From the IMG/VR virus record IMGVR_UViG_3300042991_000780, positions 31,173-95,172 of that record: a stretch of 64,000 bases of DNA; one strand, written 5' to 3'. The notes below the pieces were generated by a model. It searched no databases. It saw nothing but the letters and a program-made list of their open reading frames with translations, and had not been told where the DNA came from. This document shows, in pieces, positions 674-7,777 of this stretch. This stretch comes from a virus. Each line of letters starts with the position of its first letter. Position 1 is the first letter of the stretch. The position numbers were made by a program, and so were the translations under genes.

Positions 674-1774
674 CTAAAGAGTAAACCTATCTTGTTTACG
701 AGCCTTTTTACGAAGTTCGTTTACTGTTCTGAGAGCATCTGGATCAAATCTTTCCCTTTTAACGACACTCACCATATGGTTGAATTCGTTTTCGGTGATA
801 ACCTGACCAATATATCCTTCGGTCTTGAGTACATAACTCTTTGGTGCTTTACTTGAAGCAGAAGGGTTACCTTCTGTATCAAGAGTTGCTTCAAAGGTCA
901 ACTCAAGAAGTTCCTGAATCTTTTCCTGAACACTTGCGGTCATACCCTGTTTTGTTTTCTTCAATGACCTTTCAAGCAAATCAACAATATTTTCCTGATG
1001 CTTTACTTTCAACTCATTATAAGTTTCGGTAAAATTCTGCATTGTTGATCTATTTTTCAACTCACTGATAATTGCAAGTGAACCATAGCAGTCACGGATC
1101 ATCAAGTCCCATACCTGTTCTGCGTAAGTGAATGAAGGGAATTTGTCTATTGCAACAATTTCACCATCAACAAGTACGATGATACCGATAAGATTGCTTG
1201 GACGTTCAAAGTGAGCAATAAACTGTTCAAGTTTCTTGTCGTACTTTTCAAAGTAAACGTTCAAGTAGTTACCAGCGTTTGACTGAGTATCCTGACCCAA
1301 TTTCTGAATAGCAGGATAAATCCTATGATATGAACTTGGCTGTCCAACAGTGTCAAACACCATTTCACGCATGGTTACTGGAAGCATACGGAACTCCTGA
1401 GTACCACGAAAATGTCCGGTCTGTCCACCCTGAACACAACCAGCATCGTGATAAGTAACGTTACCGTACTTTTCAACGTAACCTGCTTTGGTCATACCAT
1501 GATTCTGAGCACTCTGCTTGGTCATAACAGCCATCTGGGTAGGAAGAATAACTTCCTTATCAGCCTTATTAGCAAAACTAATCTGACCGTAAGAACTGTT
1601 ACCAGCCTGAACCGAAGTCAATGGATTAGCAAAACGTTCATCCAAAGAATATTCCTTGTCAGTTGTCAAACATACGATCTGCATGTTCAAAATTGACTGA
1701 ACGATAATGTTACCGTTTTTGTCTTTGACTGGACGGCAACCTTTAAGCAATTCTGTAAATTCTCTTTTATTCAT
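674..1774 (-). CDS. ARPP-1/DUF6569-like protein
   Basis: Motifs QNH...CVQGGQ and IGIIVLVDGEIVAIDKFPS...W...DCYG resemble the ARPP-1 family. Lies 11 nt downstream of the vWA gene. Confidence 0.6.
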   Translation of the reverse strand: MNKREFTELLKGCRPVKDKNGNIIVQSILNMQIVCLTTDKEYSLDERFANPLTSVQAGNSSYGQISFANKADKEVILPTQMAVMTKQSAQNHGMTKAGYVEKYGNVTYHDAGCVQGGQTGHFRGTQEFRMLPVTMREMVFDTVGQPSSYHRIYPAIQKLGQDTQSNAGNYLNVYFEKYDKKLEQFIAHFERPSNLIGIIVLVDGEIVAIDKFPSFTYAEQVWDLMIRDCYGSLAIISELKNRSTMQNFTETYNELKVKHQENIVDLLERSLKKTKQGMTASVQEKIQELLELTFEATLDTEGNPSASSKAPKSYVLKTEGYIGQVITENEFNHMVSVVKRERFDPDALRTVNELRKKARKQDRFTL

Positions 1775-1785
1775 GATATGAAATA

Positions 1786-3420
1786 TTAAGCATTAATACT
1801 AATTTTTTTGTTCCTTTTAACAGGTGCTGCTTCAAGAGCAAGAACCTGATTTTCAAGCCACCTTTTGGTGTCAATTTCAAGCAACCTTGCGTTGATTTGT
1901 GGCTGCAAAGCAACGGGGTTATTTATTGCCATTGTGACAACTCCTGCACCAAGTTTCCTTACATTAGCACCCATTTCAGCACTCACGATTGGTGAAATTT
2001 GAAACATAGGTATATTTCTTCCGGTTTCTGCCTTCCAAATGTTGATAACTTCATTGGTAAGACCATCGTATGCGTTTTCGTATCCATCGGTTAAGATGAA
2101 GATTGCATCATATGGTTTTGAAGCATTTTCTGCTTTCAAAAGTCCAATAAATGAACTTGCCAAGTCAGTAACCTCACCATCAGTGTATTCAATACTGCAA
2201 CTATTGGTTGCAGATTTGCTCAATACCCTTGCGGTAAAGTCAGCAATTGCCTTTGGAGTGTTCTTTGATTCAGCCTGATGACCACTCATTGAATTACTCA
2301 TATCGACAATAATACCGATATTTGGGTAGAAGAATCCTACGATTTTCTTCTTGTCTGCAAGTTTGTCAATAGCACCCATTATTTCAGGAGTGAATTTTGT
2401 TTCATAACCTGTCTTGTAAAGTGCCAAGAAATCAGTTGCTTTTTCAAGATCAACATGTTTTTCAACACCCAACTTTGCAGTTGATTTTGTCTGACGAACC
2501 TGCTGGTTTACAGAAGTAACCTCAACATTTTTCCTAATCAAAGCCTTTGTTGCTTCTCTCTGGATTTTTGTTGACCACATTGAATGATACTGAGGATGCT
2601 TTACGCTTGAAATCAAGCCAAGCAATACTTCTTCAGGTACTTTCTTTGATGCAGTAATATCAGTCTTTGCTTTCTGATATTCACTCAAAAGAGGGAATAC
2701 ATTAGCATTAAACGTAACACCAGCATCTTTCTTGAAGATGAAAAGCATAAGTTTGAATGCTTTCATTGGATCACCATTGTAATACCTTAATATGTATTCA
2801 TTCAAAATCTTCATTTCCTTTTCAGTTCCAACAACGAATTCACCAACGTTAGCAGCCTTGCCAGTAATTGAAAGCAACACAGATGTCATTTTCTTTCCAT
2901 ATGCGTGCCTCAAAGTATCGGCAATCTTGTTACGATATTTCATTGCATAGAATTCAAGGTTTTCCTGACCCCAGATGAAGCCAAGCATGATTTTCCTTGA
3001 CCTTTCGTTGTTGATCTTTGCATTTTTCAATGAAACAAACAAACGAAGAACATATGGTAGACCACTTTCGCCAAGGTTGTTCAATGCTGAAAGCACTGCC
3101 TTATCGCTTAATCCGTTATCATACCAGTCAATTGGATTAACAATATTGCATGCTCCACCCTTTAAGGTACTTTTAAATTCATTAAACAATACCTCTGATA
3201 CGAACTGACCAGTCGCACCCTTCTGAGTTGCAACTATCAACGGGAGTTCCTTTGAAAGTTTATACAAACTCTTAACCTGAGTCTGAATAGCCTTCACCTG
3301 TTCGTCACCCTTGTGGTAATAGGTAGCACTACCTTTTGCACCACTTGCAATGGTAAGACCATCGATAAGTGACTGCTTTACCTTACTGAGCATGTTGTTT
3401 GCTAATACCAACTTTTCCAT
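1786..3420 (-). CDS. Ro60/TROVE-like protein: predicted helical N-terminal region plus C-terminal vWA domain
   Basis: MIDAS-like IIVDMSNSMSG and AIFILTDGYEN. At 544 aa, size and layout match Ro60/Rsr. The vWA call is firm and the TROVE homology is inferred. Confidence 0.6.
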   Translation of the reverse strand: MEKLVLANNMLSKVKQSLIDGLTIASGAKGSATYYHKGDEQVKAIQTQVKSLYKLSKELPLIVATQKGATGQFVSEVLFNEFKSTLKGGACNIVNPIDWYDNGLSDKAVLSALNNLGESGLPYVLRLFVSLKNAKINNERSRKIMLGFIWGQENLEFYAMKYRNKIADTLRHAYGKKMTSVLLSITGKAANVGEFVVGTEKEMKILNEYILRYYNGDPMKAFKLMLFIFKKDAGVTFNANVFPLLSEYQKAKTDITASKKVPEEVLLGLISSVKHPQYHSMWSTKIQREATKALIRKNVEVTSVNQQVRQTKSTAKLGVEKHVDLEKATDFLALYKTGYETKFTPEIMGAIDKLADKKKIVGFFYPNIGIIVDMSNSMSGHQAESKNTPKAIADFTARVLSKSATNSCSIEYTDGEVTDLASSFIGLLKAENASKPYDAIFILTDGYENAYDGLTNEVINIWKAETGRNIPMFQISPIVSAEMGANVRKLGAGVVTMAINNPVALQPQINARLLEIDTKRWLENQVLALEAAPVKRNKKISINA

Positions 3421-3458
3421 AATGACAATTTTTAATTATTAAAACTTATTTTTCATTG

Positions 3459-3492
3459 TGCAATGTTACACATTATTTTTTAATATCCAAAA
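3459..3492 (-). promoter_or_regulatory. Bacteroidota-type promoter for the vWA gene
   Basis: TTTG-N19-TAACATTG on the - strand, close to the -33 TTTG / -7 TAnnTTTG consensus. Confidence 0.5.
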
Positions 3493-3500
3493 AAATTATA

Positions 3501-3550
3501 AAAAAAATCGGGTAAGTCGATAGATTTCTCAATCAAGTCCCCACCCGATT
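3501..3550 (-). terminator. Terminator-like hairpin closing the RNA array
   Basis: AATCGGGT...ACCCGATT stem followed by TTTTT. Confidence 0.6.
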
Positions 3551-3581
3551 CGTTTTTTGGAATAACTCTTCTTCAAATTAA

Positions 3582-3675
3582 AGAAGAAGTGCGGTTGTAT
3601 TGCCTGTAGTTTGTCTCCCTTCTCACACGGGGGAGATTACATTTTTCAATTACTGTAAACACAGCCAGTTCTTCC
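3582..3675 (-). ncRNA. Scaffold RNA module M5 (hairpin cargo)
   Basis: GGAAGAAC-T-GGCTGTGTT-TACAGTAA-[TCTCCC/GGGAGA hairpin]-AATACAACC-GCAC-TTCTTC. Confidence 0.65.
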
Positions 3676-3755
3676 ATAAAAATTTATATTTTTTGAAAAA
3701 AATGCCACACACCTGTGACCAAAAAACCATTTTTAACCGTCAAATGTTAGGATTC

Positions 3756-3825
3756 CAAGTGGGGATTTGGATTAATATTACTTGATTTATCAAATTTGTC
3801 TGCAATCCGCATATCGCTCCACTTG
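3756..3825 (-). ncRNA. Possible degenerate sixth module
   Basis: CAAGTGG/CCACTTG and GGATT/AATCC stems. TTGCAGACAA sits where TTACAGTAA occurs in the others, followed by a small hairpin. Confidence 0.3.
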
Positions 3826-3834
3826 TATAATTTC

Positions 3835-3972
3835 GGGAATAATTTAAAAGTATTTGTTGTTTTTAATCAAAGTTTAAGAGACTTCTGACTTAACCGCTTG
3901 TCTATTTTTCAATTTTGGCTGAAAAAGATGGATTCGAACCACCGTATTACTGTAAACACTTTTCGTTTTCCC
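3835..3972 (-). ncRNA. Scaffold RNA module M4 containing a circularly permuted tRNA-Lys(CUU)-like cloverleaf
   Basis: Order: T arm GGTGG-TTCGAAT-CCATC, acceptor 3' strand TTTTTCA-G-CCA, linker AAAT, acceptor 5' strand TGAAAAA, D arm GAC-AAGCGGTTAA-GTC, anticodon arm GAAGT-CTCTTAA-ACTTT. The ends pair as the scaffold. Confidence 0.8.
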
Positions 3973-4001
3973 TCAATATTTTAAAGAACTTCAATAAGTT
4001 T

Positions 4002-4081
4002 AGAAGAAATTCGTTGGTCTTGTTGTCGTTATTAGTTTGATTTCAAGTCAAATTGTTACTGTAAAAACCACCAGTTCTTCT
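4002..4081 (-). ncRNA. Scaffold RNA module M3 carrying an isolated Ser(UGA)-type anticodon stem-loop
   Basis: AGAAGAAC...TGGTTTTTACAGTAA-CAA-TTTGA-CTTGAAA-TCAAA...AAGACCA...TTTCTTCT. Confidence 0.7.
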
Positions 4082-4153
4082 TTATATTTTAAATTTGTAG
4101 CAGGTTATTGTTTCAAATTTGAAATTTCAAAGTATTTATAATAAATAGTACTT

Positions 4154-4831
4154 ATGAAACCAAATTATACCGAATCTGAATTTGACACAGCAACATCTAC
4201 AAGTTTATTATCTTGTTTTTGTTATAATTGTAACACCCTTTTTAATGTAATGAAGAAAAATATTGTACAGGAATTAAAGCATAAAAGAGGAAGAATAAAA
4301 TTTTGTTCAAAGAAGTGTCATGATATTTATCAATCAAATCAAATCTCCGTTATTTGTAATAATTGCGGTAAAACATTTACTAAAATAGCATCTGAAATTA
4401 AAACAAATAATTTTTGTTCAAATTCATGCGCTGCAATATATAATAACACACATAAAACAAAAGGCAATCGTAGGTCTAAACTTGAAACATATCTTGAAAC
4501 ACAACTCGCTGCACAATTTCCAAATTTAGAAATATTATTCAACGATAAAAAAACAATTAATTCCGAACTGGATATTTACATACCCAGACTTCACCTTGCT
4601 TTTGAACTTAATGGTATTTTTCATTACGAACCTATCTATGGTCAAAATAAATTGAGTCAAATTCAAAATAATGATAATCGTAAATTTCAAGCCTGTTTAG
4701 AACAAGAAATTGAATTGTGTATTATTGATGTTTCACATCAAAAATATTTTAAAGAAAACACTTCAAAAAAGTATTTAGACATTCTCATTACAATTATAAA
4801 CAATAAGTCAATGAACATGTTAAACATTTAG
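4154..4831 (+). CDS. Zn-finger plus Vsr/DUF559-like endonuclease (free-standing homing endonuclease type)
   Basis: CxxC and FCSxxC repeats. C-terminal ELDIYIP...FELNGIFHY...DNRK. Own GTATTTAT motif at 4132. Confidence 0.7.
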   Translation: MKPNYTESEFDTATSTSLLSCFCYNCNTLFNVMKKNIVQELKHKRGRIKFCSKKCHDIYQSNQISVICNNCGKTFTKIASEIKTNNFCSNSCAAIYNNTHKTKGNRRSKLETYLETQLAAQFPNLEILFNDKKTINSELDIYIPRLHLAFELNGIFHYEPIYGQNKLSQIQNNDNRKFQACLEQEIELCIIDVSHQKYFKENTSKKYLDILITIINNKSMNMLNI

Positions 4832-4887
4832 TCAATCTATCGATTGTGCAGTAATTACCACGTGCAGGTAGTTTAACTTTAATTACT

Positions 4888-4961
4888 TAGCGGGAGATGG
4901 ATTCGAACCACCGACCTTAACGTTATGAGCGTCACGAGCTAACCACTGCTACTACCCCGCA
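4888..4961 (-). tRNA. tRNA-Met(CAU), initiator-like body with an atypical anticodon stem
   Basis: TGCGGGG-TA-GTAGCAGTGGTTAGCTC-G-TGACG-CTCATAA-CGTTA-AGGTC-GGTGG-TTCGAAT-CCATC-TCCCGCT-A. 1:72 mismatch and no encoded CCA. Confidence 0.9.
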
Positions 4962-5386
4962 ATATGTTTTTCCAATAAATCCCATGCTTCTCTATATTCA
5001 TGAGATTTTGGCTTTCTCTGTCTGGATACTTTTTCATGTAATGTTATTGAACCCGCAAATGAATTAAAAATATTAACAGGTACAACATAAAACACTTTTA
5101 GTTCTGAAATGAAAATTATTGCAAAATTAAAATCATTATTGGAATATTTTTCTCTTTTCATCACACGTCTATTTGTTTTGGTTCTTCTCACATCAATCAA
5201 ATAAACTCCTTCTTCTTTTGATAACCACGCTGACTTAACTTGTATCTTAATAAATTTATTATTAATAACAATGACCAAATCATATGGTAATCTATCACCT
5301 ACCGGAATTAAAACATCCCATCCCAATTGAAGTGCTTTTAATTGTACTTCAATCTCCGCAATATCACCTTTCATTTTAGTATCCAT
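4952..5386 (-). CDS. PD-(D/E)XK endonuclease, group I intron-associated (I-Ssp6803I/PDDEXK_5-like) family
   Basis: KGDIAE...IPVGDRLPYDLV...IQVKS...Y...DF. The stop codon overlaps the tRNA 5' end. Start taken at MDTK (alternative 5401). Confidence 0.8.
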   Translation of the reverse strand: MDTKMKGDIAEIEVQLKALQLGWDVLIPVGDRLPYDLVIVINNKFIKIQVKSAWLSKEEGVYLIDVRRTKTNRRVMKREKYSNNDFNFAIIFISELKVFYVVPVNIFNSFAGSITLHEKVSRQRKPKSHEYREAWDLLEKHIAG

Positions 5387-5411
5387 AATCTCAAAGAACA
5401 TTTAATAAGAT

Positions 5412-5549
5412 AAAAAAGGAAAATTTGTTTGTTATTTCTGTTATAAACAATGATGGAATTGAACCACCAACATTCTGCTTGACGTGCAAACACTCTAACC
5501 AGTTGAGTTAATTGTAATTTACTGTAATAACAACACCGTTTCCTTTTTT
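5412..5549 (-). ncRNA. Scaffold RNA module M2 enclosing a tRNA-Asp(GUC)-like cloverleaf (5447-5515)
   Basis: ACAAT-TA-ACTC-AACTGGTTA-GAGT-G-TTTGC-ACGTCAA-GCAGA-ATGTT-GGTGG-TTCAATT-CCATC-ATTGT, flanked by AGGAAAC..GTTATTACAGTAA and AATAAC..TTCCT. Confidence 0.75.
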
Positions 5550-5551
5550 TG

Positions 5552-5689
5552 TGGGGAGAACAGGAATCGAACCTGTAATCAATTGTGTTTAAAACAATTT
5601 GCTTTACCTTATTTACTGTAAACACTTCAAGTTCTCCCTTACGGGAGCAATGAGATAGTATTTTCGTTATTTTGATTTGCTATCTCCCC
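5552..5689 (-). ncRNA. Module M1: tRNA-like RNA with the scaffold inserted in the D arm
   Basis: 7-bp acceptor GGGGAGA/TCTCCCC and T arm ACAGG-TTCGATT-CCTGT. A ~65 nt insert AAATACT..CTCCC-GTAA-GGGAG-AAC..AGTGTTTACAGTAA lies in the D arm. Confidence 0.7.
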
Positions 5690-5732
5690 ATTTAAAAGTT
5701 TGTTCAAAGAACATTTTGTCATTCAGACGTTG

Positions 5733-5764
5733 CAAATATAAAACACCTTTTTTAATTGTGCAAG
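5733..5764 (-). promoter_or_regulatory. Bacteroidota-type promoter driving the RNA array
   Basis: CTTG-N20-TATATTTG (perfect -7 element). Confidence 0.6.
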
Positions 5765-5822
5765 CATTTTATAAAATATTTTCTAAAAAAATTAAAATAT
5801 TTTTATCTGCACGTCTGGAATA

Positions 5823-5830
5823 ATAAATAC
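5823..5830 (-). promoter_or_regulatory. Putative late promoter GTATTTAT upstream of the RNA array
   Basis: Same motif that precedes the structural genes of the window. Confidence 0.55.
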
Positions 5831-5869
5831 GATGATATTTCAAAAAAGTTATAAAAAAGTATAAAAAAA

Positions 5870-7777
5870 TTAATCTTTTTTCATAATATCCTGACTCTTA
5901 GCATTTTTGCGGATATGTTCAAGTACACTTAAAACATTACTATTATCACTTTCAAGACTATCTGGATCAGTTAAAATAATTTTATTTTCTTTTGGTAATT
6001 GTGGTTTTTCTTCTTCAATTATGATAAGATCATCAGTTTTTACCACTGGAATTTCACCAGTAAGTTCAGTTTTTGTCTCACCACTCTCGCCATTCCAGTC
6101 AAAATAATCACCACTTGGTTTAATATTTTCATTATTGGTCATTATAATCGGTTGTAATGTTTCGGGAATTTCTGAGACATTACCTGTAACAATAAGTGGT
6201 TCTTTTTCAACCTTTGGTACTTCAACGTATTCCCTATTCCACGCTGCCTTAAATTCCTCAAGTTCATTTTTCTTTTCAATTATAACATCATCATTAACAT
6301 TATCCAGATGATCCGCATATTTTTCCGATATGACTTGAGCAATTTTTTGTTGCGATGATACTTTATTTGCAATATCTTCAATATTTTCAACATCAGTAGT
6401 CTTAATACCAGTTGTTTTAATTGGATACCTTTCATCTTCAATAACAATTTCCATTGTATCATTATTGAACCTACTATCCCTAAAAGTTTGACCATCTTGT
6501 GCAAATCTTGCTTTTATTATTCTGATGTTTGCAAGACCTGCTTCTTTCTGATCTGCAGTTTTTGCAACTGACATAAAGAAGTGTGCTTTTTGAACACGTT
6601 TAATGCTACCACCAGTTTGGTATGCTTCAACATATTCTGAATCAAATCCACTTCTGTTTGTCTGTATTGCAGTCCATGCCGGAATGTTAAAATCGGCAGC
6701 AAGTGCTTCAAACGATTTAATAACCTGAAGTTCTGCTTCCGTTCTATCAGTTGTTTTCTTATTTGATTCAAGACAATCAAGATAATCAACAATAAGCATA
6801 TCAAACTTAAAACCCCATTTTTTCTCGTAACGAATCATCCAGTTCCTAATGTCAGTCATTGTTGTATTTTCCTGACTAAACTTCTTTATTACAAGATGTC
6901 CCTTACCATTTAATTTTTGTTTCTTTTGTTCAACTTTCTCAGCAACTTCGCTTAGATGTTCATCCATTTTACTTAATTGAACACCAGTCCATATGGTAAA
7001 ATGTTTTCTCTGTATTTGTTCTATCGTATCCTCAAAAACTATTTGTGCAACATTTTTCCCGGCAAAATCATATGCAGTATTTGCAATTTTGGTAAGCATC
7101 GTAGTTTTCCCAACCCCGGATGGTGTTAATATAACACCAATTTCACCCTTACCAAGACCACCATCAGTTACAATATCAATAACACGAATACCTGTTGGTA
7201 TTGTCTGACGGAATTCTTTTCTCAATACTCTATCGATGTTATCAATTACTTCAGTTCCAAAATCTTCTTCTTCTCCAATATGTGATATTTTCAGTAGTTT
7301 TTCATCAATCTCACCAAGTACATGTTTTTTTCGTATTTCTCCAGTTTTTGTTTTATCAATTATAAATTCAGCAAATTTTCTCCATTCTTGTTGTTTAATG
7401 AATGTTGTTGTTGTCTTTCGAATAGCCTCACCGTCATAATCAAGTTCCTTGTTAATGATTCGTTCATTCCATAATTGAACTTTCTTTATTACGGCAAATA
7501 ACGATTCTTCCTCAATCTGATTGTTGGGTGCTTTAAATTGATTGATTGCTTGTTGAATACTTTGATTCTGTAAATTTGGTACTTTACCAAATTCTTTATA
7601 ATACTCCAATATTATAATGAAGAGTCTCCTATAATTTGGATCATCAAAATATTCAACAGATAAATTAGATAATGTTTTTTCGGCAAACTCTGGTTCGACA
7701 AGCAATTGCCACATAAGACGCAATTGAAATTCCGGTCCGAGATATGCCGTAAATGTATTTTCTGTAACTTCTGCCAT
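5870..7777 (-). CDS. Replicative DNA helicase (DnaB/T4 gp41-like) with a long acidic C-terminal extension
   Basis: Walker A TPSGVGKTT, LIVDYLD, WTAIQTNR, IIKARF. Confidence 0.9.
   Translation of the reverse strand: MAEVTENTFTAYLGPEFQLRLMWQLLVEPEFAEKTLSNLSVEYFDDPNYRRLFIIILEYYKEFGKVPNLQNQSIQQAINQFKAPNNQIEEESLFAVIKKVQLWNERIINKELDYDGEAIRKTTTTFIKQQEWRKFAEFIIDKTKTGEIRKKHVLGEIDEKLLKISHIGEEEDFGTEVIDNIDRVLRKEFRQTIPTGIRVIDIVTDGGLGKGEIGVILTPSGVGKTTMLTKIANTAYDFAGKNVAQIVFEDTIEQIQRKHFTIWTGVQLSKMDEHLSEVAEKVEQKKQKLNGKGHLVIKKFSQENTTMTDIRNWMIRYEKKWGFKFDMLIVDYLDCLESNKKTTDRTEAELQVIKSFEALAADFNIPAWTAIQTNRSGFDSEYVEAYQTGGSIKRVQKAHFFMSVAKTADQKEAGLANIRIIKARFAQDGQTFRDSRFNNDTMEIVIEDERYPIKTTGIKTTDVENIEDIANKVSSQQKIAQVISEKYADHLDNVNDDVIIEKKNELEEFKAAWNREYVEVPKVEKEPLIVTGNVSEIPETLQPIIMTNNENIKPSGDYFDWNGESGETKTELTGEIPVVKTDDLIIIEEEKPQLPKENKIILTDPDSLESDNSNVLSVLEHIRKNAKSQDIMKKD

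What the first reader, a model, noticed from the sequence alone, without database searches (positions are those of the whole stretch)
5552..5689. tRNA-like gene with the same scaffold inserted inside-out in its D arm
Seen: the 5' and 3' ends form a normal 7-bp acceptor (GGGGAGA/UCUCCCC). The scaffold is an internal ~65-nt arm whose two strands are in swapped order and capped by CUCCC-GUAA-GGGAG (GNRA loop). The best-paired anticodon loop is UU-UAA-AC (Leu UAA), but the register is ambiguous and the D stem is weak. Inference: occurrence in permuted topology shows the scaffold is a portable structural domain, not a terminator or DNA repeat. It could alternatively be an excisable intron-like unit.
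Basis: partly seen in the sequence, partly recalled or inferred. Interest (0 to 1): 0.75.

Follow-up and report, generated by a model that had tools for sequence, protein, structure and literature searches.

The report
tRNA-shaped phage RNA with Ro60 handle
A giant phage encodes a 138-nt RNA that is built like a tRNA with free ends but carries, inside its D loop, the same two-helix "handle" that neighbouring small RNAs carry at their ends; it is most likely a tRNA look-alike partner of the phage's Ro60-type RNA-binding protein, not a working, split or broken tRNA.

Summary
The ends form a 7-bp acceptor stem stacked on a canonical T arm. A roughly 65-nt arm in the D loop carries the scaffold's 3' strand, a capped helix and then its 5' strand.

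A covariance model finds 78 copies in 63 of 74 related giant-phage sources, and 11 more elsewhere in IMG/VR. In 34 aligned homologues 99.1% of cells pair, and 14 of 29 pairs show changes on both sides.

The GNRA cap and the "Leu UAA" anticodon are not conserved: 57 unique copies have 30 different loops. The conserved downstream gene folds as Ro60 (TROVE plus vWA), followed by ARPP-1. Complete relatives carry 36-65 ordinary tRNAs elsewhere.

Best reading: a Y-RNA-type tRNA mimic with its protein handle moved into the D loop, probably cut out by tRNA-processing enzymes. No binding, processing or expression data exist.

New here: an alternative helix (positions 4-10 with 32-38) covaries with the acceptor stem, so the RNA may have two states.

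The scan met this family before on other DNA (e1-5647683, e1-5647688, e1-5346388), and those readings agree with this one.

The parts
5683..5689 (-). Acceptor 5' strand GGGGAGA (RNA positions 1-7)
   Evidence: Pairs with 5553-5559 in 99.6% of cells; 4 of 7 pairs show changes on both sides.
5679..5682 (-). U8 A9 and D-stem 5' strand G10 C11
   Evidence: U8 and A9 are invariant. G10-C and C11-G pair in 92.6% of cells. Divergent copies have GAUU/AAUC, GUUU/AAAC or UGC/GCA instead.
5663..5678 (-). A/C-rich single-stranded linker (positions 12-27), the scaffold's junction strand
   Evidence: Matches the A/C-rich 3' junction strands of modules M2 and M3. It is variable, with entropy 1.10 bits.
5657..5662 (-). 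Scaffold helix H2, 3' strand AAUACU (positions 28-33)
   Evidence: Pairs with 5621-5626 in 98.5% of cells. AAUAU/AUAUU variants occur in the second subfamily.
5652..5658 (-). Segment X' CUAUCUC (positions 32-38), partner of the alternative helix B with positions 4-10
   Evidence: 96.6% of cells paired, 3 pairs compensated. Duplex energy is -8 to -10 kcal/mol in subfamily I. It is the predicted fold of every nascent prefix up to nt 132.
5634..5647 (-). Scaffold helix H1 closed by a loop: CUCCC-GUAA-GGGAG (positions 43-56)
   Evidence: 100% of cells paired at the 4 pairs counted; 3 of them change on both sides. The cap varies widely in length and sequence.
5631..5633 (-). Invariant AAC 3' of H1 (positions 57-59)
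   Evidence: Entropy 0.00 over 57 unique sequences. Also present in all end-paired modules.
5613..5626 (-). H2 5' strand AGUGUU plus junction motif UACAGUAA (positions 64-77)
   Evidence: Repeat family D10 links it to 3650, 4056 and 5613. UNCAGUA entropy is 0.28 bits.
5600..5612 (-). 3' part of the D loop with G18 G19 (5608-5607), D-stem 3' strand GC and A26
   Evidence: GGUAAAGC is nearly invariant. The Rfam tRNA alignment places GGU in the D loop.
5581..5599 (-). Anticodon-like stem-loop; loop UUUAAAC at 5593-5587
   Evidence: The stem pairs in 100% of cells and 3 pairs are compensated. The loop has 30 variants in 57 unique sequences.
5560..5576 (-). T arm ACAGG-UUCGAUU-CCUGU
   Evidence: 100% of cells paired; 4 of 5 pairs compensated. 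The loop is canonical UUCRANY.
5552..5559 (-). Acceptor 3' strand UCUCCCC and discriminator A (5552)
   Evidence: The next base (5551) is C in all 57 contexts, and the base before G1 is U in 43 of 57.
5700..5713 (-). boxA-like TGTTCTTTGAACAA in the leader, 11 nt upstream of G1
   Evidence: GTTCT lies 14-30 nt upstream of the RNA in 48 of 57 distinct contexts. The likeness to rrn boxA is from memory.
1786..3420 (-). Ro60-like protein gene (HEAT-repeat ring plus vWA), the presumed partner
   Evidence: No Pfam hit. AF2 pLDDT 76.6. The Foldseek top 12 hits are all Ro60. VIA Z is 12-14 over about 400 residues. DxSxS is invariant at 373-377.
674..1774 (-). ARPP-1 domain protein gene, conserved directly downstream of the Ro60-like gene
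   Evidence: PF20208, E = 4.8e-14. Present downstream in 61 related loci.

Best explanation
This is a Y-RNA-type partner RNA of the phage's Ro60-like protein, built as a complete tRNA mimic. The protein-binding handle is H1, invariant AAC, H2 GUGUU/AAUAC and UNCAGUA. Sister RNAs carry this handle at their paired 5'/3' ends. Here it is closed by a loop and grafted into the D loop, between A14 and G18G19.

The RNA's own ends are therefore a normal tRNA acceptor end. It can be cut from the untranslated multi-RNA transcript by RNase P at G1 and by a 3' tRNA-processing enzyme after the discriminator, and it could receive CCA. The mature RNA would hold the Ro60-like protein on its internal arm while displaying an L-shaped body with a free acceptor end and a fast-changing anticodon-like loop. 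That body would serve as a tether or decoy for a tRNA-binding factor.

Shown: the fold, its conservation, the shared handle, and the linkage to the Ro60-like and ARPP-1 genes.
Inferred: binding to the Ro60-like protein, processing by tRNA enzymes, and the tether or decoy role.
For: - Fold: 99.1% of cells paired, 14 of 29 pairs compensated, slid controls about 50%.
- Distribution: 78 model hits of at least 85 bits in 63 of 74 sources, the next best score being 42 bits, plus 11 more viral contigs.
- Conservation: the handle is the most conserved part, with AAC entropy 0, UNCAGUA 0.28 and H2 about 0.4, against 0.60 for the T loop.
- Shared handle: the same handle occurs in end-paired modules.
- tRNA tertiary-interaction bases are kept: U8, A14, G18G19, U48 and UUCRA.
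- Processing signs: U at -1 in 43 of 57 contexts and C after the discriminator in 57 of 57.
- Position: in 31 of 57 contexts the next end-paired module's AAC lies 10-14 nt after the RNA's 3' end.
- Neighbouring genes: the downstream gene folds as Ro60 and ARPP-1 follows it in 61 loci.
- Not a decoder: 30 loop variants, 12 different 'anticodons', U33 in only 37 of 53 seven-base loops and 4 loops that are not 7 nt. Complete relatives have 36-65 ordinary tRNAs elsewhere.
- CCA addition: a PF01743 nucleotidyltransferase is present in 5 of 5 complete relatives.
- Precedents: Y RNAs beside Ro60 that mimic tRNA and are cut by RNase P (PMC4201824); a phage Ro60 with upstream Yrl RNAs (PMC12135203).
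Against: - There is no experimental evidence of expression, of the ends, or of binding. RNA-library contigs did not cover this RNA informatively.
- The handle lacks the GNCGAA/CGAA motif of known bacterial and phage Y RNAs.
- The protein is Ro60-like only by predicted fold, with TM-scores of 0.36-0.39. Pfam TROVE does not match.
- A covarying alternative helix B is not explained by a simple static tether.
- The role of ARPP-1 is unknown.
Confidence: 0.6

Rival explanations
1. Its main job is punctuation. On this view it is a tRNA-shaped processing signal that recruits RNase P and the 3' tRNA-processing enzymes to cut the long untranslated transcript and make the exact 5' end of the next end-paired module. 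This is compatible with the best explanation and may be an added role.
For: In 31 of 57 contexts the next module's AAC lies 10-14 nt after the RNA's 3' end. U is preferred at -1 and C always follows the discriminator. A boxA-like leader suggests one long noncoding transcript.
Against: A bare tRNA would do this job. The internal handle is nevertheless the most conserved part of the RNA. In 25 of 57 contexts no module follows directly.
Confidence: 0.15
2. It is a chargeable, decoding tRNA that merely carries an extra arm, so that a Ro60-bound tRNA is delivered to ribosomes.
For: It has a complete acceptor and T arm, a discriminator that is mostly A, C74 always encoded, mostly 7-nt loops, and a phage nucleotidyltransferase is present.
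Against: The 57 unique copies have 12 different 'anticodons', including between copies identical outside that loop (L067 vs L009). U33 is absent in 16 of 53 seven-base loops and 4 loops are not 7 nt. UGA- and UAA-type loops lack the long variable arm of bacterial Ser and Leu tRNAs. The D stem has 2 bp. The phages carry 36-65 normal tRNAs.
Confidence: 0.08
3. It is a tRNA gene interrupted by an excisable intron or mobile insert in the D loop, spliced to a tRNA of about 72 nt.
For: Insert-like placement. Homing-endonuclease-type genes lie in the same array.
Against: No intron family matches at E up to 10. The insert is shared with non-tRNA modules and is more conserved than the tRNA parts. Removing it would leave a 2-bp D stem. 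The anticodon is not conserved. No DNA contig of run X1 skips the insert (table 5).
Confidence: 0.04
4. It is an ordinary end-paired module that starts at GGGAGAAC (5638), and the upstream 50 nt are only a leader.
For: GGGAGAA can pair with UUCUCCC in this copy. The 88-nt form folds with z = -2.6.
Against: That pairing holds in 74% of cells and breaks at 5 of 7 pairs, against 99.6% for the outer acceptor. Positions 1-14 are as conserved as the core. H1 covaries independently of the 3' end. The module would also lack a 3' strand for H2.
Confidence: 0.05

Closest known systems
YrlA-type bacterial and phage Y RNAs bound by Ro60/Rsr (Rfam RF02553; PMC4201824)
   Same: A small RNA encoded on the same strand within a few kb of a Ro60 gene. 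It combines a protein-binding stem with a tRNA-like domain that keeps the T loop, the D-loop GG and Levitt-pair positions. M. smegmatis YrlA is cut by RNase P and receives CCA.
   Different: In YrlA the 5'/3' ends form the Ro60 stem, the order is T arm, closed acceptor, D arm, and there is no anticodon arm. Here the ends form the acceptor, the order is that of a normal tRNA with an anticodon-like arm, and the handle is an internal hairpin in the D loop. The handle lacks GNCGAA. The YrlA model scores 22.9 against a cut-off of 69, and that hit spans two neighbouring genes.
Thermus phage phiLo Ro60 with Yrl1/Yrl2 (PMC12135203; PDB 9KOP, 9L5Y)
   Same: A phage Ro60 homologue with several partner RNA genes directly upstream. 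9KOP is the best structural match of the protein here, with Z = 14.2.
   Different: The phiLo Yrls are described as classic stem-bulge-stem Y RNAs with a CGAA motif. Here there is an array of five or six modules with tRNA-derived cargo, and an ARPP-1 gene follows the Ro60-like gene.
tmRNA tRNA-like domain
   Same: The 5' and 3' ends pair into an acceptor stem stacked on a T arm, the D region is reduced, and the rest of the RNA is a large internal insertion.
   Different: There is no mRNA-like reading frame and no pseudoknots, and ARAGORN's tmRNA search finds nothing. The insertion is in the D loop and the anticodon arm is kept.
Sister modules in the same array (M2 permuted tRNA-Lys-like at 3835-3972, M5 tRNA-Asp-like at about 5420-5544)
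   Same: An identical handle (AAC, GUGUU/AAUAC or GUUAUU/AAUAAC, UUACAGUAA) and tRNA-derived cargo.
   Different: The handle is attached at the variable-loop position in M2 and at the acceptor ends in M5, with H1 formed by the RNA termini. Only this type leaves the tRNA's own termini free.

Membership tests
tRNA (Rfam RF00005) | Score at or above the family cut-off (29 bits) or detection by ARAGORN | tested here: not met
   26.5 bits, model positions 10-63 only. ARAGORN finds nothing with its standard, intron or relaxed settings; only its mitochondrial mode calls a 64-nt fragment.
tRNA (Rfam RF00005) | 7-bp acceptor stem stacked on a 5-bp T stem with a UUCRANY loop | tested here: met
   99.6% and 100% of cells paired, with compensatory changes.
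tRNA (Rfam RF00005) | Seven-base anticodon loop with U33, and an anticodon conserved among orthologues | tested here: not met
   30 loop variants and 12 triplets. U33 is present in 37 of 53 seven-base loops, and 4 loops are not 7 nt.
tRNA (Rfam RF00005) | Compact D arm (3-4 bp stem, 7-11 nt loop) | tested here: not met
   A 2-bp stem and a loop of about 76 nt that contains the handle.
YrlA / Y RNA | Encoded near a Ro60 gene and on the same strand | tested here: met
   2.1 kb upstream on the same strand. The linkage is kept in related loci.
YrlA / Y RNA | 5' and 3' ends pair to form the Ro60-binding stem | tested here: not met
   The ends form the acceptor stem, and the handle is an internal capped hairpin.
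YrlA / Y RNA | Rfam YrlA model at or above 69 bits; GNCGAA(N)G motif | tested here: not met
   22.9 bits, spanning two genes. The handle reads GAGAAC-UUGAAG here and RAAC-N in the family.
YrlA / Y RNA | Physical binding to Ro60 | not testable with these tools
   Needs a gel-shift assay or immunoprecipitation.
Ro60 / TROVE (the 544-aa neighbour) | Sequence match to Pfam TROVE | tested here: not met
   No Pfam family at E up to 0.01. A profile against PDB sequences finds nothing relevant.
Ro60 / TROVE (the 544-aa neighbour) | HEAT-repeat ring followed by a vWA domain with a MIDAS DxSxS motif | tested here: met
   Helices span residues 8-357 and an alpha/beta domain spans 367-531. The top 12 Foldseek hits are all Ro60. 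Z is 12-14 over about 400 residues spanning both domains. D373, S375 and S377 are invariant.
tmRNA | Tag reading frame and detection by ARAGORN -m | tested here: not met
   Nothing found.
Group I or other catalogued introns in tRNA | Match to an Rfam intron family | tested here: not met
   No intron family at E up to 10 in 4500-6500. Archaeal bulge-helix-bulge sites were not tested with a dedicated tool.

The most novel reading that the evidence does not exclude
The RNA may be a two-state device in which the state of the tRNA-like acceptor end controls whether the Ro60 handle exists.

- Helix B (positions 4-10 with 32-38) competes with both the acceptor stem and the G-C end of handle helix H2.
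- B covaries together with the acceptor in three lineages.
- B is the predicted fold of every nascent prefix until the last 3' bases are made.
- In this copy B lies only about 2 kcal/mol above the tRNA-like fold.

Loss, damage or modification of the 3' acceptor strand would then flip the RNA, dissolve the handle and free a single-stranded 3' tail. That is the kind of end that Ro60 rings thread. This would make the RNA a sensor or switch for the Ro60-like/ARPP-1 pair acting on tRNA 3' ends.
Probability: 0.12. Interest if true: 0.85.

Novelty: new variant of a known kind. Interest (0 to 1): 0.65.

Why it matters
Ro60 and its Y RNAs are conserved from bacteria to humans, yet the purpose of the tRNA-like part of bacterial Y RNAs is an open question. 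This phage clade grafts one conserved handle onto tRNA-shaped cargo at three different places: the acceptor ends, the variable loop and, here, the D loop.

The D-loop form is the only one that leaves a genuine free tRNA acceptor end. That points to the acceptor end and the anticodon-like loop as the displayed, functional surfaces. It also gives a natural set of topological variants for testing what a Ro60 particle does with tRNA-like RNA.

The fast-changing loop, the linked ARPP-1 enzyme candidate and the covarying alternative helix suggest a role in phage-host conflict over tRNAs. That role can be tested in vitro with synthetic RNA and recombinant protein.

Tried and rejected
1. Transcript ends. 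Two metatranscriptome runs and one doubtful run were laid on 3400-5900. Nothing informative covers 5552-5689; the only hit is a 32-nt T-arm-like contig with 4 differences. Neither the ends nor expression of this RNA could be judged.
2. Bacterial and archaeal genomes. A 19-base pattern gave 33 hits, about the number expected by chance by my own rough estimate. None matches the covariance model. The four hits on a Paludibacter MAG contig lie in a repeated signal-peptide coding region. This gave no host clue and no cellular homologue, but only this narrow pattern was searched.
3. Rfam. No family reaches its cut-off for this RNA or for the sister modules. The YrlA hit is an artefact joining this T arm to the next gene's D arm.
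4. My first structure string for H1 was off by one column and gave a false 58.8% pairing. Corrected, it gives 100%.
5. Literature search for ARPP-1. Most hits were the unrelated ARPP-16/19 proteins. The relevant description is in PMC9503650.
6. Helix B as a universal feature. It is strong only in subfamily I, shifted and weak in subfamily II, and absent in the most divergent copies.
7. A fixed GNRA tetraloop role for the cap was rejected, because cap length and sequence vary.

Full report
**Setting.** The window is part of a 95-kb IMG/VR virus record judged 31% complete. Relatives with the same locus are complete genomes of 327-365 kb, so this is a giant phage.

The finding lies on the minus strand in an untranslated stretch. 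That stretch sits between a DnaB-like helicase gene (5870-7777) and a 544-aa gene (1786-3420), which is followed by an ARPP-1 domain gene (674-1774).

**The observation.**
- GGGGAGA at the 5' end and UCUCCCC-A at the 3' end;
- a canonical T arm ACAGG-UUCGAUU-CCUGU abutting the 3' acceptor strand;
- a 5-6 bp stem with the loop UUUAAAC;
- the hairpin CUCCC-GUAA-GGGAG.

The minimum-energy fold of the 138 nt is exactly acceptor, internal long arm, anticodon-like hairpin and T arm. Its energy is -36.9 kcal/mol with z = -4.1. Standard tRNA finders fail. ARAGORN misses the gene, and Rfam's tRNA model aligns only positions 10-63 at 26.5 bits against a cut-off of 29.

**The insert is the shared scaffold with its strands swapped.** Five modules on this strand share AAC, then a helix strand ending in UU, then UUACAGUAA. 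This is repeat family D10 together with the sequence itself. In modules M1 and M2 the minimum-energy folds pair the RNA's two ends into H1. They then form H2 (GUGUU with AAUAC), and the cargo lies between the two strands.

In the present RNA the order is different:
- acceptor 5' strand, U8 A9, G10 C11;
- an A/C-rich strand, then AAUAC (the H2 3' strand);
- CUCCC, a loop, GGGAG (H1, closed by the loop);
- AAC, then AGUGUU (the H2 5' strand), then UACAGUAA;
- the rest of the D loop with G18 G19, and then the remainder of a tRNA.

The handle is therefore the same, but it is closed at H1 and opened into the D loop.

**Conservation.** The 544-aa protein retrieved 73 related loci. BLASTN found full-length 138-nt homologues at 70-92% identity in most of them.

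In an alignment of 34 distinct copies, the proposed structure pairs in 99.1% of cells. Of its 29 pairs, 14 show changes on both sides. Versions with the partners slid by 1-3 columns pair in only about 50%. By helix:

| Helix | Cells paired | Pairs with changes on both sides |
|---|---|---|
| Acceptor | 99.6% | 4 of 7 |
| T stem | 100% | 4 of 5 |
| Anticodon-like stem | 100% | 3 of 5 |
| H1 | 100% | 3 of 4 |
| H2 | 98.5% | none in this alignment |

H2 does vary in the second subfamily, as AAUAU/AUAUU.

A covariance model built from this alignment finds 78 copies of at least 85 bits in 63 of 74 sources. Fourteen sources have two or more copies, and the next best score is 42 bits, from ordinary tRNAs. 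A pattern scan of all IMG/VR contigs added 11 more copies.

The alternative is an RNA beginning at GGGAGAAC (5638) whose ends pair as in the other modules. That pairing holds in only 74% of cells and is broken in some sequences at 5 of 7 pairs. The upstream 50 nt are as conserved as the core. Covariation therefore favours the 138-nt tRNA-ended form. Transcript ends could not be mapped, because the RNA-library contigs do not cover this RNA informatively.

**What is and is not conserved.** Over 57 unique copies the handle is the most conserved part:

| Region | Entropy (bits) |
|---|---|
| AAC | 0.00 |
| UNCAGUA | 0.28 |
| H2 strands | 0.39-0.47 |
| T loop | 0.60 |
| Anticodon-like loop | 1.10 |
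| H1 cap | 1.73 |

- The cap varies widely in length and sequence and is a tetraloop only in a minority, so GNRA is incidental.
- The anticodon-like loop has 30 variants and 12 different middle triplets. UGA occurs 26 times, GUA 8 times, and UAA only in this window. U33 is present in 37 of 53 seven-base loops, and four loops are not 7 nt.
- L067 and L009 are identical except inside this loop.
- Bases that build the tRNA L-shape are kept: U8, A14, G18 G19, U48 and UUCRA.
- The D stem is 2 bp here, but GAUU/AAUC, GUUU/AAAC and UGC/GCA replace it in divergent copies.

**Context.**
- The base before G1 is U in 43 of 57 distinct contexts and never G. The base after the discriminator is C in all 57, and CCA is encoded in 4.
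- In 31 of 57 contexts the next end-paired module's AAC lies 10-14 nt after the RNA's 3' end. In the window this is the tRNA-Asp-like module.
- GTTCT, as part of a boxA-like GTTCTTTAA, lies 14-30 nt upstream in 48 of 57 contexts.
- The order helicase, RNA array, 544-aa gene, ARPP-1 is conserved in about 60 loci. The PD-(D/E)XK and HNH-like ORFs inside the array occur in only 2-3 loci.

**The partner protein.** Pfam and PHROGs give nothing for the 544-aa protein.
- An AlphaFold model made from 25 homologues has pLDDT 76.6 and pTM 0.72. It shows a helical repeat region followed by an alpha/beta domain.
- The 12 best Foldseek matches in the PDB are all Ro60, with E down to 1e-5 and probability 1.0, although TM-scores are only 0.36-0.39.
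- In the second-look alignment the top 10 are Ro60 structures with Z = 12-14 over about 400 residues spanning both domains. The best is the Thermus phage phiLo Ro60. Hits to vWA alone follow at Z of about 10 or less.
- A DxSxS MIDAS motif is invariant.

The protein is therefore a divergent Ro60. ARPP is described only computationally, as a probable enzyme acting on ribose or ADP-ribose moieties in conflict systems (PMC9503650).

**Why it is not a decoding tRNA.** The loop is variable, as described above. In addition, five complete relatives each carry 36-65 ordinary high-scoring tRNA genes in clusters far from this locus. All five encode a PF01743 nucleotidyltransferase, and one of the five encodes RtcB.

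**Mechanism proposed.**
- Shown: a conserved structured RNA with a tRNA core and the shared handle, genetically linked to the Ro60-like and ARPP-1 genes.
- Inferred from the Y RNA literature (PMC4201824, PMC12135203): the handle binds the Ro60-like protein. Because the termini are tRNA termini, RNase P and a 3' tRNA-processing enzyme release the RNA, and this cut also makes the 5' end of the next module. CCA can then be added. The displayed tRNA body tethers a tRNA-binding factor or acts as a decoy for it, and the loop evolves quickly.

**An unexplained extra: helix B.** Positions 4-10 (GAGAUAG) are complementary to positions 32-38 (CUAUCUC). The latter segment lies between H2 and H1 and overlaps the G-C end of H2.
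- B pairs in 96.6% of cells, and three of its pairs change on both sides.
- The changes are three-way. In L008, L075 and L017:1918 the 5' strand, the 3' acceptor strand and the internal segment change together.
- Duplex energies are -8 to -10 kcal/mol in subfamily I. In subfamily II a weaker helix uses positions 9-14 instead, and the most divergent copies have none.
- Forcing B costs only 2.3 kcal/mol in this copy, and 0.2-8 kcal/mol in all but two of the other 33 aligned copies.
- B is the predicted fold of every nascent prefix up to nt 132.

B could be a folding guide that protects the G-rich 5' strand until the 3' end is made. It could also be a real switch that couples the acceptor end to the handle.

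**Comparison with known systems.** This RNA works like a Y RNA with a tRNA-like module. It fails the membership tests for YrlA on topology, motif and model score, and it fails the tests for a genuine tRNA on score, D arm and anticodon conservation. I file it as a new variant of the Ro60/Y-RNA kind.

Earlier follow-ups in this scan reached the same reading for copies in other genomes. I saw those notes after my own analysis. This report adds:
- the census with a covariance model;
- the direct test of the end-paired alternative;
- the loop statistics;
- the flanking-base conservation;
- helix B.

Noticed in passing
window 5700-5713 (-), and upstream of homologues in loci L004-L076: A boxA-like motif (TGTTCTTTGAACAA here, GTTCTTTAAAAT elsewhere) lies 14-30 nt upstream of the RNA in 48 of 57 contexts. 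The same motif precedes module M2 at about 3990-4003. It may mark Nus-type antitermination of a long untranslated transcript. The likeness to rrn boxA is from memory.
   Followed up: partly
window 5551 and 5690; all homologues: The base after the discriminator is C in 57 of 57 contexts, mostly as A|CAA and as CCA in 4. The base before G1 is U in 43, C in 12, A in 2 and never G. This looks like selection for tRNA-type end processing.
   Followed up: partly
window 3677-3811 and 3714-3969: An RNA-library contig with adapter sequence at both ends matches 3677-3811 exactly. Another matches 3714-3969 with 4 differences. These cover the spacer between modules M2 and M1 and part of M2, so the spacer may hold a further stable RNA. 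RNA libraries can contain DNA.
   Followed up: no
window 4115-4814 and 5076-5270: DNA contigs of run X1 join 4115 to 4814, skipping 698 nt that hold the HNH-like ORF 4154-4831. They also join 5076 to 5270, inside the PD-(D/E)XK ORF. These ORFs occur in only 2-3 of 73 related loci. They look like mobile endonuclease genes that are present or absent within the RNA array.
   Followed up: partly
L020:1943-2076 and L021:7083-7216: This copy of the RNA has lost its 5' acceptor strand and helix-B region (it starts AUGUAGACC...), while the handle, T arm and 3' strand are intact (87 bits). It is a decayed or re-purposed copy.
   Followed up: no
L041, L017:1918-2045, L034, L033: Copies that have lost G18 G19 in the D loop, or changed it to AG, also have non-canonical T loops (CUCGAAA, CUCGAUA, CUCAGUC). 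This hints that the D-loop/T-loop contact is real and co-evolves.
   Followed up: no
complete relatives G001-G005 (records of L013, L022, L025, L035, L053): Each carries 36-65 ordinary tRNA genes in clusters far from the Ro60 locus, and a PF01743 (CCA-adding/poly(A) polymerase family) gene. RtcB is present in only one of the five.
   Followed up: partly
window 5467-5720: Run X1 holds a second contig over this stretch with 12 substitutions and several small indels. A close strain with a variant copy of this RNA is present in the same sample.
   Followed up: no
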